Below the pieces are notes generated by a model. It worked only from the letters and a program-made list of their open reading frames with translations, did not search any database and had not been told where the DNA came from. Shown one piece after another: positions 31,006 to 33,559 of a stretch of 43,851 bases of DNA. A program made the translations under genes and the position numbers. The DNA is from a virus. Lineage: Duplodnaviria; Heunggongvirae; Uroviricota; Caudoviricetes. Where the stretch lies: IMG/VR virus record IMGVR_UViG_2531839640_000007, one strand, 5' to 3'. Position 1 is the stretch's first letter. Each line of letters starts with the position of its first letter.

Positions 31006-33559
31006 ACCGGTAGGCGATCTGGTCGTTGATTTGAGTCTGGATGCGGCCAGATTTGACGAGCAGATGGCCAGAGTCAGGCGTCATTTTTCCGGTACGGAAA
31101 GTGATGCGAAAAAAACAGCGGCAGTCGTTGAACAGTCGATGAACCGGCAGGCGCTGGCTGCACAGAAAGCGGGAATTTCCGTCGGGCAGTATAAAGCCGC
31201 CATGCGTATGCTGCCTGCGCAGTTCACTGACGTGGCCACGCAGCTTGCAGGCGGGCAAAGTCCGTGGCTGATCCTGCTGCAACAGGGGGGTCAGGTGAAG
31301 GACTCCTTCGGCGGGATGATCCCCATGTTCCGGGGGGCTTGCCGGTGCGATCACCCTGCCGATGGTGGGGCTACCTCGCTGGCGGTGGCGACCGGAGCGC
31401 TGGCGTATGCCTGGTATCAGGGCAACTCAACCCTGTCCGATTTCAACAAAACGCTGGTCCTTTCCGGCAATCAGGCGGGACTGACGGCAGATCGTATGCT
31501 GGTCCTGTCCAGAGCCGGGCAGGCGGCAGGGCTGACGTTTAACCAGACCAGCGAGTCACTCAGCGCACTGGTTAAGGCGGGGGTAAGCGGTGAGGCTCAG
31601 ATTGCGTCCATCAGCCAGAGTGTGGCGCGTTTCTCCTCTGCATCCGGCGTGGAGGTGGACAAGGTCGCTGAAGCCTTCGGGAAGCTGACCACAGACCCGA
31701 CGTCGGGGCTGACGGCGATGGCACGCCAGTTCCATAACGTGACGGCGGAGCAGATTGCGTATGTTGCTCAGTTGCAGCGTTCCGGCGATGAAGCCGGGGC
31801 ATTGCAGGCGGCGAACGAGGCCGCAACGAAAGGGTTTGATGACCAGACCCGACGCTTGAAAGAGAACATGGGCACGCTGGAAACCTGGGCAGACAGGACA
31901 GCACGGGCATTCAAATCCATGTGGGATGCGGTGCTGGATATTGGTCGTCCTGATACCGCGCAGGAGATGCTGATTAAGGCAGAGGCCGCGTTTAAGAAAG
32001 CGGACGATATCTGGAATCTGCGCAAGGATGATTATTTTGTTAACGATGAAGCGCGGGCGCGTTACTGGGATGATCGTGAAAAGGCCCGTCTTGCGCTTGA
32101 AGCTGCCCGAAAGAAGGCTGAGCAGCAGAGTCAACAGGACAAAAATGCGCAGCAGCAGAGCGATACCGAAGCGTCACGGCTGAAATATACCGAAGAGGCG
32201 CAGAAGGCTTACGAACGGCTGCAGACGCCACTGGAGAAATATACCGCCCGTCAGGAAGAACTGAACAAGGCACTGAAAGACGGGAAAATCCTGCAGGCGG
32301 ATTACAACACGCTGATGGCGGCGGCGAAAAAGGATTATGAAGCGACGCTGAAAAAGCCGAAACAGTCCGGCGTGAAGGTGTCTGCGGGCGATCGTCAGGA
32401 AGACAGTGATCATGCTGCCCTGCTGACGCTTCAGGCAGAACTCCGGACGCTGGAGAAGCATGCCGGAGCAAATGAGAAAATCAGCCAGCAGCGCCGGGAT
32501 TTGTGGAAGGCGGAGAGTCAGTTCGCGGTACTGGAGGAGGCGGCGCAACGTCGCCAGCTGTCTGCACAGGAGAAATCCCTGCTGGCGCATAAAGATGAGA
32601 CGCTGGAGTACAAACGCCAGCTGGCTGCACTTGGCGACAAGGTTACGTATCAGGAGCGCCTGAACGCGCTGGCGCAGCAGGCGGATAAATTCGCACAGCA
32701 GCAACGGGCAAAACGGGCCGCCATTGATGCGAAAAGCCGGGGGCTGACTGACCGGCAGGCAGAACGGGAAGCCACGGAACAGCGCCTGAAGGAACAGTAT
32801 GGCGATAATCCGCTGGCGCTGAATAACATCATGTCAGAGCAGAAAAAGACCTGGGCGGCTGAAGACCAGCTTCGCGGGAACTGGATGGCAGGCCTGAAGT
32901 CCGGCTGGAGTGAGTGGGAAGAGAGCGCCACGGACAGTATGTCGCAGGTAAAAAGTGCAGCCACGCAGACCTTTGATGGTATTGCACAGAATATGGCGGC
33001 GATGCTGACCGGCAGTGAGCAGAACTGGCGCAGCTTCACCCGTTCCGTGCTGTCCATGATGACAGAAATTCTGCTTAAGCAGGCAATGGTGGGGATTGTC
33101 GGGAGTATCGGCAGAGCCATTGGCGGAGCTGTTGGTGGCGGCGCATCCGCGTCAGGCGGTACAGCCATTCAGGCCGCTGCGGCGAAATTCCATTTTGCAA
33201 CCGGAGGATTTACGGGAACCGGCGGCAAATATGAGCCAGCGGGGATTGTTCACCGTGGTGAGTTTGTCTTCACGAAGGAGGCAACCAGCCGGATTGGCGT
33301 GGGGAATCTTTACCGGCTGATGCGCGGCTATGCCACCGGCGGTTATGTCGGTACACCGGGCAGCATGGCAGACAGCCGGTCGCAGGCGTCCGGGACGTTT
33401 GAGCAGAATAACCATGTGGTGATTAACAACGACGGCACGAACGGGCAGATAGGTCCGGCTGCTCTGAAGGCGGTGTATGACATGGCCCGCAAGGGTGCCC
33501 GTGATGAAATTCAGACACAGATGCGTGATGGTGGCCTGTTCTCCGGAGGTGGACGATGA
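30998..33559 (+). CDS. H: Tail tape measure protein H, 853 aa
   Basis: Recognised lambda H; one 12-codon stretch (about 31330-31367) deviates between two G-runs. Confidence 0.96.
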   Translation: MAEPVGDLVVDLSLDAARFDEQMARVRRHFSGTESDAKKTAAVVEQSMNRQALAAQKAGISVGQYKAAMRMLPAQFTDVATQLAGGQSPWLILLQQGGQVKDSFGGMIPMFRGACRCDHPADGGATSLAVATGALAYAWYQGNSTLSDFNKTLVLSGNQAGLTADRMLVLSRAGQAAGLTFNQTSESLSALVKAGVSGEAQIASISQSVARFSSASGVEVDKVAEAFGKLTTDPTSGLTAMARQFHNVTAEQIAYVAQLQRSGDEAGALQAANEAATKGFDDQTRRLKENMGTLETWADRTARAFKSMWDAVLDIGRPDTAQEMLIKAEAAFKKADDIWNLRKDDYFVNDEARARYWDDREKARLALEAARKKAEQQSQQDKNAQQQSDTEASRLKYTEEAQKAYERLQTPLEKYTARQEELNKALKDGKILQADYNTLMAAAKKDYEATLKKPKQSGVKVSAGDRQEDSDHAALLTLQAELRTLEKHAGANEKISQQRRDLWKAESQFAVLEEAAQRRQLSAQEKSLLAHKDETLEYKRQLAALGDKVTYQERLNALAQQADKFAQQQRAKRAAIDAKSRGLTDRQAEREATEQRLKEQYGDNPLALNNIMSEQKKTWAAEDQLRGNWMAGLKSGWSEWEESATDSMSQVKSAATQTFDGIAQNMAAMLTGSEQNWRSFTRSVLSMMTEILLKQAMVGIVGSIGRAIGGAVGGGASASGGTAIQAAAAKFHFATGGFTGTGGKYEPAGIVHRGEFVFTKEATSRIGVGNLYRLMRGYATGGYVGTPGSMADSRSQASGTFEQNNHVVINNDGTNGQIGPAALKAVYDMARKGARDEIQTQMRDGGLFSGGGR

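What the first reader, a model, noticed from the sequence alone, without database searches (positions are those of the whole stretch)
31325..31370. Twelve-codon frame excursion in tape-measure gene H bounded by two G-runs
H matches lambda except for ...MFRG-ACRCDHPADG-GATSLA..., where the +1 frame instead reads LAGAITLPMVG between a G6 run (31332-31337) and a G-run at about 31366-31369. One extra G followed by one missing G is the signature of paired homopolymer length errors, or of real compensating indels. It suggests that the other frameshifts in this window should be treated with caution.
Basis: partly seen in the sequence, partly recalled or inferred. Interest (0 to 1): 0.4.

Follow-up and report, generated by a model that had tools for sequence, protein, structure and literature searches.

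The report
Paired G-run assembly errors in H
The ten odd amino acids in this prophage's tail tape-measure gene come from two one-base errors in G-runs in an early draft genome of the 2011 E. coli O104:H4 outbreak strain, not from a real variant.

Summary
Gene H (30998-33559) has G6 at 31332-31337 and G4 at 31367-31370. Codons 114-123 between them read ACRCDHPADG where lambda has LAGAITLPMV.

It is not biology. The window is the lambda-like prophage next to ybhC in E. coli O104:H4. It differs from four independent genomes at the same 7 single-base changes, all in or beside mononucleotide runs. Against two of them (FDAARGOS_349 and C227-11) there are no substitutions over 43.85 kb. Those four are Sanger-sequenced 55989 (my recollection of the platform), 2011C-3493, FDAARGOS_349 and the finished genome of the same strain, C227-11 (CP011331). 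All have G5/G5 in H.

The variant H protein exists on one contig only: AFST01000002.2, the C227-11 draft. The normal protein is on 110 contigs. None of 6,667 H-like places in 3,692 complete E. coli genomes carries the window's sequence, and a 48-base pattern spanning both runs finds nothing in three large contig collections.

The altered stretch is hydrophobic in all homologs compared.

A further point: the three inserted bases among the seven changes all restore a reading frame. In rusA and terminase A they mask real pseudogenes. This suggests frame-guided editing of the draft, which is an inference.

Verdict: artefact, low interest.

The parts
30998..33559 (+). Gene H, the tail length tape-measure protein (853 aa). 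It is intact as an open frame in the window.
   Evidence: ORF list and translation. Pfam TMP_2 matches residues 54-256 and Tape_meas_lam_C matches 627-701. The protein is identical to the O104:H4 reference H except at residues 114-123.
31332..31337 (+). G6 run, one G longer than in every reference (G5). This is the upstream, +1 edge of the frame excursion. It is inferred to be a frame-restoring insertion placed in the wrong run.
31337..31366 (+). Codons 114-123, read one base out of register. They give ACRCDHPADG instead of LAGAITLPMV.
   Evidence: Mean Kyte-Doolittle hydropathy falls from +1.91 to -0.81. The Pfam TMP_2 score falls from 235.3 to 227.1 bits.
31367..31370 (+). G4 run, one G shorter than in every reference (G5). 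This is the downstream, -1 edge of the excursion. It is inferred to be the original under-call.
7364..7369 (+). T6 run where the references have T7. It lies in a non-coding stretch between the kil-like gene and the repressor gene. Same class of discrepancy.
14600..14604 (+). G5 run in rusA (14512-14874) where the references have G4. The extra G compensates a genuine one-base deletion of the lineage 3 nt upstream. As a result rusA reads as an intact 120-aa gene with E30R.
   Evidence: PDB 1q8r has SAEGQ; the window has SARGQ. This RusA variant is on one contig only. No complete E. coli genome has this sequence. RefSeq annotates rusA as frameshifted in four assemblies.
22411..22414 (+). G4 run in terminase gene A (21171-23095) where the references have G5. 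It is an artefactual frameshift that splits A into ORFs 21171-22436 and 22403-23095.
22821..22826 (+). T6 run in A where the references have T5. The extra T fills the place of a G that is genuinely deleted in this lineage (intact relatives have TTTTTGATC). It masks the real frameshift and gives a D-to-Y change.
   Evidence: The best matches in 5,426 complete E. coli genomes are 99%, and none is exact.
42824..42826 (+). G3 run in the side tail fibre gene stf (starts at 40194) where the references have G4. It is an artefactual frameshift; the frame closes at 43007 instead of about 43268.
   Evidence: The reference stf is an intact 3,075-nt CDS.

Best explanation
The frame excursion is an artefact of one draft assembly. 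It is not a property of the phage or of the strain.

The window is the lambda-like prophage beside ybhC of E. coli O104:H4 strain C227-11, as it stands in draft contig AFST01000002.2. In the real DNA both G-runs in H are G5, and residues 114-123 are LAGAITLPMV. In the draft the first run is one G too long and the second one G too short, so ten codons are read out of register while the ORF stays open.

Likely sequence of events (inferred, not shown):
1. The raw consensus under-called several homopolymers. This accounts for the four deletions at 7364, 22411, 31367 and 42824.
2. A reading-frame-guided repair step, by a curator or by software, then added one base per broken gene in the nearest convenient run.
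3. In H the base was added to the wrong G-run, so that 29 bases upstream of the under-called run are read out of register.
4. In rusA and A the added base papered over genuine frameshifts.

I put about 0.95 on 'artefact'. Within that, I put about 0.55 on the repair step, as against two independent miscalls.
For: Shown by tool results:
1. Against FDAARGOS_349 the window has 0 substitutions and 7 single-base indels over 43,851 nt, and every indel is in a mononucleotide run.
2. The same 7 sites have the reference length in 55989, in 2011C-3493 and in the finished genome of the same strain, C227-11, CP011331.
3. The variant H protein is EGT66945.1, 'hypothetical protein C22711_0973 [E. coli O104:H4 str. 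C227-11]'. It is on one contig, AFST01000002.2. 8,562 nt of that contig are identical to window 27998-36559. The normal H is on 110 contigs from NCBI, ENA and Logan.
4. None of 6,667 H-like places in 3,692 complete E. coli genomes matches the window's 141 nt exactly. The best identity is 98.6%, which corresponds to the two indels.
5. A 48-base degenerate pattern spanning both altered runs has 0 hits in the viral, metagenome and genome contig collections. The reference pattern has at least 120 hits in viral contigs.
6. Residues 114-123 lie in the Pfam TMP_2 domain and are hydrophobic or small in lambda and in Ralstonia, Klebsiella, Salmonella, Vibrio and Escherichia phage homologs. The window puts 2 Cys, 2 Asp, Arg and His there.

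For the repair step (inference):
- All three insertions restore a reading frame, and none of the four deletions does.
- Two random errors restoring both genuine frameshifts has P = 2.4e-5.
- The resulting A and rusA sequences exist in no complete E. coli genome.
- The RusA variant is on the same single contig.

Background:
- A table in PMC4326458 links AFST01000000 to C227-11.
- A PacBio CCS dataset of C227-11 exists (PMC5964698).
- PacBio-only assemblies are reported to produce frameshifts through deletions in G/C stretches (PMC6729007).
- That AFST01 itself came from early PacBio RS data (Rasko et al., NEJM 2011) is my own recollection. That paper is not held.
Against: - No raw reads could be inspected, so the error is inferred from disagreement between assemblies, not observed.
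- The repair model leaves two broken genes unrepaired: A at 22411 and stf at 42824. It needs the extra assumptions of one repair per gene and no repair in stf.
- I found no documentation that such editing was done.
- The finished C227-11 genome is labelled 'isolate 368 shch', so formally it is a later stock of the strain.
Confidence: 0.95

Rival explanations
1. Still an artefact, but with no editing. Two independent homopolymer miscalls, one over-call and one under-call, happened to fall close together (29 bases between the runs) in a locally poor stretch of the draft consensus, and happened to cancel.
For: H has several G-runs within 90 nt: G6 at 31285, G5 at 31332 and G5 at 31366 in the reference. 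Other public records also differ in run lengths here: PhiR49_1 is split at the G7 run, and CP025907.1 has three one-base deletions. Errors tend to cluster where coverage is low. An opposite-sign pair within 40 nt occurs in 2.1% of random trials even without clustering.
Against: It does not explain why the other two insertions in the window land exactly beside the only two genuine frameshifts and restore both frames (P = 2.4e-5). It also does not explain why they insert the base of the adjacent run rather than the ancestral base.
Confidence: 0.38
2. Real compensating (+1/-1) frameshift mutations, present in the C227-11 stock sequenced in 2011. This would be a Crick/Streisinger-type double frameshift that leaves H open with ten altered residues.
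For: The ORF is intact. Homopolymer slippage is a common natural mutation. Formally, the finished genome comes from a later stock.
Against: - Seven run-length changes and no substitution in 43.85 kb is not a natural mutation spectrum.
- The haplotype is absent from the same strain's finished genome, from at least 10 other assemblies of the outbreak clone, from 55989, and from every collection searched.
- The altered stretch replaces a conserved hydrophobic segment with charged residues and cysteines.
- The prophage has a genuinely frameshifted terminase, so there is no obvious selection to rescue H.
Confidence: 0.03
3. A chimeric consensus: reads from another lambdoid prophage in the same genome, which carries several H, A and rusA paralogs, were mixed into the consensus and produced the odd run lengths.
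For: O104:H4 genomes hold 2-5 places similar to this module.
Against: No place in any complete E. coli genome, paralogs included, carries the window's H, A or rusA sequence. At the A site the paralogs have G where the window has T. No substitutions were imported.
Confidence: 0.01
4. Phase-variable G tracts in the tape-measure gene, that is, run lengths that really fluctuate within the population.
For: The region is G-rich, and a few other records differ in run length here.
Against: The tracts are only 5 bases long. 110 contigs carry the identical normal protein against 1 contig for the variant. There is no length variation at these two runs among the outbreak-clone assemblies compared.
Confidence: 0.01

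Closest known systems
Homopolymer-length errors in early single-molecule or flow-based draft assemblies (PacBio RS, 454, Ion Torrent)
   Same: The differences are +/-1 changes in mononucleotide runs, mostly G-runs. There are no substitutions. Broken or altered ORFs disappear when the same strain is re-sequenced. PMC6729007 reports the same pattern for a PacBio-only assembly of another strain.
   Different: Here two errors cancel inside one gene, so no frameshift is flagged and the protein entered databases as a full-length 853-aa sequence (EGT66945.1). Also, the insertions are non-randomly frame-restoring, which suggests an added editing step.
Classical compensating double-frameshift mutants (Crick-Brenner rII suppressor pairs; Streisinger's T4 lysozyme double frameshifts). 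From my own knowledge.
   Same: A + and a - indel a few codons apart give an open frame with a short run of altered amino acids. This is the anatomy seen here.
   Different: Those are real mutations in the DNA and were selected for function. Here the pair is absent from the organism's DNA as judged from independent sequencing.
Lambda gpH and the prophage tape-measure family (Pfam TMP_2 plus Tape_meas_lam_C)
   Same: 853 aa, both domains present, and 9 substitutions from lambda H outside the excursion. The surrounding G, T, H, M, L, K, I, J gene order is the same as in lambda-like phages.
   Different: Only the ten artefactual residues.

Membership tests
Homopolymer-length assembly error | The difference is a +/-1 change in the length of a mononucleotide run. 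| tested here: met
   G5 to G6 at 31332-31337 and G5 to G4 at 31367-31370, relative to the closest allele.
Homopolymer-length assembly error | The change is not reproduced in independent sequencing of the same strain or clone. | tested here: met
   The finished C227-11 genome CP011331, FDAARGOS_349, 2011C-3493 and 55989 all have G5/G5. The variant protein is on 1 contig and the normal one on 110.
Homopolymer-length assembly error | It occurs together with other run-length-only discrepancies and without substitutions. | tested here: met
   7 indels, all in homopolymers, and 0 substitutions in 43,851 nt.
Homopolymer-length assembly error | Raw reads show ambiguous or discordant run lengths at the sites. 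| not testable with these tools
   No read data are accessible.
Genuine compensating double frameshift | Two opposite-sign indels in one ORF restore the frame. | tested here: met
Genuine compensating double frameshift | Both indels are present in the organism's DNA, that is, reproducible. | tested here: not met
   Absent from the same strain's finished genome and from all other records searched.
Genuine compensating double frameshift | The altered stretch is tolerated by the protein. | tested here: inconclusive
   The segment is hydrophobic in all homologs aligned, and the variant adds 2 Cys, 2 Asp, Arg and His. Hydropathy goes from +1.91 to -0.81 and the Pfam score drops 8.2 bits. This is an unfavourable sign but not a functional test.
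Phase-variable homopolymer tract | Run length varies among isolates or reads of one clone. | tested here: not met
   The four assemblies compared base by base have identical run lengths at both sites, and about ten outbreak-clone records match the 23-kb structural module with the same bit score.
Lambda gpH tape-measure protein | Pfam TMP_2 and Tape_meas_lam_C domains, with the lambda tail gene order. | tested here: met
   TMP_2 at 227.1 bits and Tape_meas_lam_C at 76.2 bits. Gene order as.

The most novel reading that the evidence does not exclude
The 2011 draft captured a real subclonal H allele in the C227-11 culture. This would be a natural +G/-G double frameshift that rewrites ten residues of a conserved hydrophobic segment of the tape-measure protein. 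The two G5 runs would then be a natural slippage hotspot that can generate in-frame peptide variants.
Probability: 0.02. Interest if true: 0.3.

Novelty: not a real feature. Interest (0 to 1): 0.05.

Why it matters
Biologically it does not matter. The real prophage has a normal H.

It matters for data hygiene:
- Paired run-length errors leave an ORF open, so frameshift checks miss them. A wrong full-length protein (EGT66945.1) now sits in public protein sets.
- In the same contig, an apparently intact RusA (EGT66920.1) and an apparently intact C-terminal part of terminase A hide two genuine pseudogenes. Terminase A appears broken at the wrong place, and stf appears broken when it is not.
- Anyone judging whether this O104:H4 prophage is functional from the draft would reach partly wrong conclusions.
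- Other frameshifts, and 'intact' genes next to homopolymers, in sequence from this assembly should be checked against CP011331.

Tried and rejected
- Source paper for the draft. I looked for Rasko et al., NEJM 2011, to check whether frame-guided editing was documented. It is not held. Text searches for it found only papers that mention the strain or the accession.
- More of contig AFST01000002.2. I tried to fetch sequence beyond the window through exact look-ups of the truncated stf product, using two start choices. Neither is on record. The repair hypothesis could therefore not be tested on more sequence.
- Paralog-derived chimeric consensus. Rejected because no E. coli genome place has the window's H, A or rusA sequence.
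- A small gene at the T-run near 7364. Only ORFs of 45 aa or fewer lie there and they differ between versions, so I treated it as non-coding.
- 'ACRCDHPADG' in phage 204576 (CP025907.1). At first sight this looked like independent support for the variant. The DNA alignment shows that record has three separate one-base deletions and that tblastn read it in a single frame. It is not the same haplotype.
- Structure prediction and large protein database searches were not run. They could not change the verdict.

Full report
**1. The observation**

H is a single open frame at 30998-33559, 853 aa. The sequence has a G6 run at 31332-31337 and a G4 run at 31367-31370. The protein reads M110-F-R-G113, then ACRCDHPADG (114-123), then G124-A-T-S.

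Lambda, PhiR42_1 and an E. coli L73 prophage read LAGAITLPMV at 114-123, which is the same bases one position out of register. The closest natural allele is TTCCGGGGGCTT...GGTGGGGGCT. Against it the window has exactly one extra G in the first run and one G fewer in the second.

- Ten codons are changed, not twelve.
- The second run is one base further along than stated.
- Nine other scattered substitutions separate this H from lambda H. All nine are shared with the natural O104:H4 allele.

**2. What the window is**

The structural half matches, at identity that rounds to 100.0%, a prophage in E. coli O104:H4 outbreak genomes and in strain 55989. The whole window aligns end to end with FDAARGOS_349. 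It runs from the host gene ybhC, through int, the early genes, lysis, Nu1 and A, to J, stf and tfa.

Over 43,851 nt there are no substitutions and seven single-base indels, and every indel is in a mononucleotide run:

| Window position | Location | Window | Reference |
|---|---|---|---|
| 7364-7369 | non-coding | T6 | T7 |
| 14600-14604 | rusA | G5 | G4 |
| 22411-22414 | A | G4 | G5 |
| 22821-22826 | A | T6 | T5 |
| 31332-31337 | H | G6 | G5 |
| 31367-31370 | H | G4 | G5 |
| 42824-42826 | stf | G3 | G4 |

**3. Which version is right**

- 55989, 2011C-3493 and FDAARGOS_349 agree with one another at all seven sites, against the window.
- An exact-sequence look-up finds the window's H protein on one contig only. 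It is AFST01000002.2 of assembly GCA_000220805.2, annotated as EGT66945.1 'hypothetical protein C22711_0973 [Escherichia coli O104:H4 str. C227-11]'.
- The 8,562 nt returned from that contig are identical to window 27998-36559.
- A table in PMC4326458 links AFST01000000 to strain C227-11.
- The finished genome of the same strain is CP011331, deposited with PMC4490391. It has the reference length at all seven sites and is otherwise identical to the window.
- The normal H protein is on 110 contigs from NCBI, ENA and Logan.

**4. Absence elsewhere**

- Of 6,667 H-like places in 3,692 complete E. coli genomes, none matches the window's 141 nt exactly. The best identity is 98.6%, which corresponds to the two indels.
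- The reference-length pattern hits at least 120 viral contigs.

**5. The protein context**

Residues 114-123 lie in the Pfam TMP_2 domain (54-256), directly after an invariant QQGGQxKDxFGG motif. In lambda and in Ralstonia, Klebsiella, Salmonella, Vibrio and Escherichia phage homologs, at roughly 40-46% identity to the reference 80-residue query, the stretch is hydrophobic or small and has no Cys, Asp, His or Arg.

The window's version has two Cys, two Asp, one Arg and one His. Mean hydropathy falls from +1.91 to -0.81, and the domain score falls from 235.3 to 227.1 bits. A real variant of this kind would probably be harmful. This is an inference, not a functional test.

**6. The other frameshifts**

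RefSeq marks rusA and the large terminase subunit A as frameshifted in 55989, 2011C-3493, FDAARGOS_349 and finished C227-11. Those two frameshifts are therefore genuine in the lineage.

- A: intact relatives have TTTTTGATC and the lineage has TTTTT-ATC. The window has TTTTTTATC, which restores the frame with a D-to-Y change.
- rusA: the solved RusA structure reads SAEGQ. The lineage lost one base so that the frame breaks there. The window's extra G gives SARGQ and an apparently intact 120-aa protein.
- That RusA variant (EGT66920.1) is again on the single AFST contig, whereas K-12-type RusA is on at least 1,000 contigs.
- Neither sequence occurs in any of 5,426 complete E. coli genomes.
- The G4 run at 22411 gives A a new, artefactual break, producing ORFs 21171-22436 and 22403-23095.
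- The G3 run at 42824 truncates stf, which is intact in all references.

**7. How the pair probably arose**

The seven changes are not random. I placed seven +/-1 errors at random on the 612 runs of four or more bases:
- An opposite-sign pair within 40 nt arose in 2.1% of trials.
- Frame-restoring hits at both genuine frameshift sites arose in 2.4e-5 of trials.

The signs sort cleanly. The four deletions look like raw under-calls. Each of the three insertions restores a reading frame.

My preferred model is that the draft consensus under-called homopolymers. This is a failure mode reported for PacBio-only assemblies in PMC6729007, and a PacBio CCS dataset of C227-11 exists (PMC5964698). That AFST01 itself came from early PacBio RS data is my recollection of Rasko et al. 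2011, which is not held.

A frame-guided repair step would then have added one base per broken gene in a nearby run:
- H: the repair went into the wrong G-run, leaving ten codons out of register.
- rusA and A: the repair hid genuine pseudogenes.
- A: it carried two frameshifts and received only one repair.
- stf: it received none.

This step is inferred and undocumented. The alternative is two independent miscalls in a G-rich, error-prone stretch. That would explain H on its own, but not rusA and A.

**8. Rivals**

- Real compensating mutations in the sequenced stock would need seven run-length mutations and no substitution in one 44-kb prophage, all absent from the later genome of the same strain and from every other isolate. 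I give this about 3%.
- A chimeric consensus with paralogous prophages is excluded, because no paralog carries these sequences.
- Phase variation is not supported. The tracts are short, and the run lengths are constant across assemblies of the clone.

**9. Verdict**

The feature is present in the window but not in the organism. It is a paired homopolymer-length artefact of the C227-11 draft assembly. Novelty: not a real feature. Interest is low, apart from the warning that this draft both breaks intact genes and mends real pseudogenes.

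Noticed in passing
window 14512-14874 (rusA) and 21171-23095 (A): The lineage (55989 plus the O104:H4 outbreak clone) has genuine one-base deletions in rusA and in the large terminase subunit A, so this prophage is probably packaging-defective. The window's extra G and extra T hide both. The RusA E30R protein EGT66920.1 exists only in this draft.
   Followed up: yes
window 33364-33868 (3' end of H and gene M), compared with L007 (NC_018658.1): Genome 2011C-3493 carries 34 substitutions and 2 indels clustered in about 500 nt, relative to the window, FDAARGOS_349, C227-11 and 55989. This looks like a recombination patch from another lambdoid prophage, or a misassembly. [quoted passage not shown]
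   Followed up: partly
window about 11448-11450, compared with L006 (55989) 10409-11547: The O104:H4 prophage lacks about 1.14 kb that is present in 55989. The deletion fuses a truncated emrE-like SMR transporter gene to a truncated ybcK-like recombinase gene, and RefSeq annotates both as partial pseudogenes.
   Followed up: partly
window 31285-31290 (G6 run; G7 in lambda), compared with L002 (PV340568.1, PhiR49_1): In PhiR49_1 and PhiR49_1_star this upstream G-run is one base shorter than in lambda, and H is annotated as two CDSs. I did not determine whether this is a real frameshift or another run-length error.
   Followed up: no
L010 (CP025907.1, 'Escherichia phage 204576', 7112-7348): This record has three separate one-base deletions in the same H stretch (C4 to C3, G5 to G4, AA to A). 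A single-frame translation of it also shows 'ACRCDHPADG'. It looks like another error-laden or decayed copy and is not the window's haplotype.
   Followed up: partly
window 8285-8290 and 18560-18567, compared with L006 (55989): 55989 differs from the O104:H4 assemblies by A5 against A6 and by T9 against T8 at two further homopolymers, plus 3 substitutions (15527, 16962, 24331). At these sites the window agrees with the other O104:H4 genomes, so they appear to be real strain differences.
   Followed up: partly
L067 (IMGVR_UViG_2563366881_000002): An IMG/VR viral contig is 43,852 nt long, one base longer than the window, and carries the normal G5/G5 haplotype. It is probably the same prophage cut at the same boundaries from another O104:H4 genome.
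   Followed up: no
window 15669-16751 (- strand): An ompC/ompD-like porin gene sits as a moron between the Q-like antiterminator and the lysis genes of the prophage.
   Followed up: no
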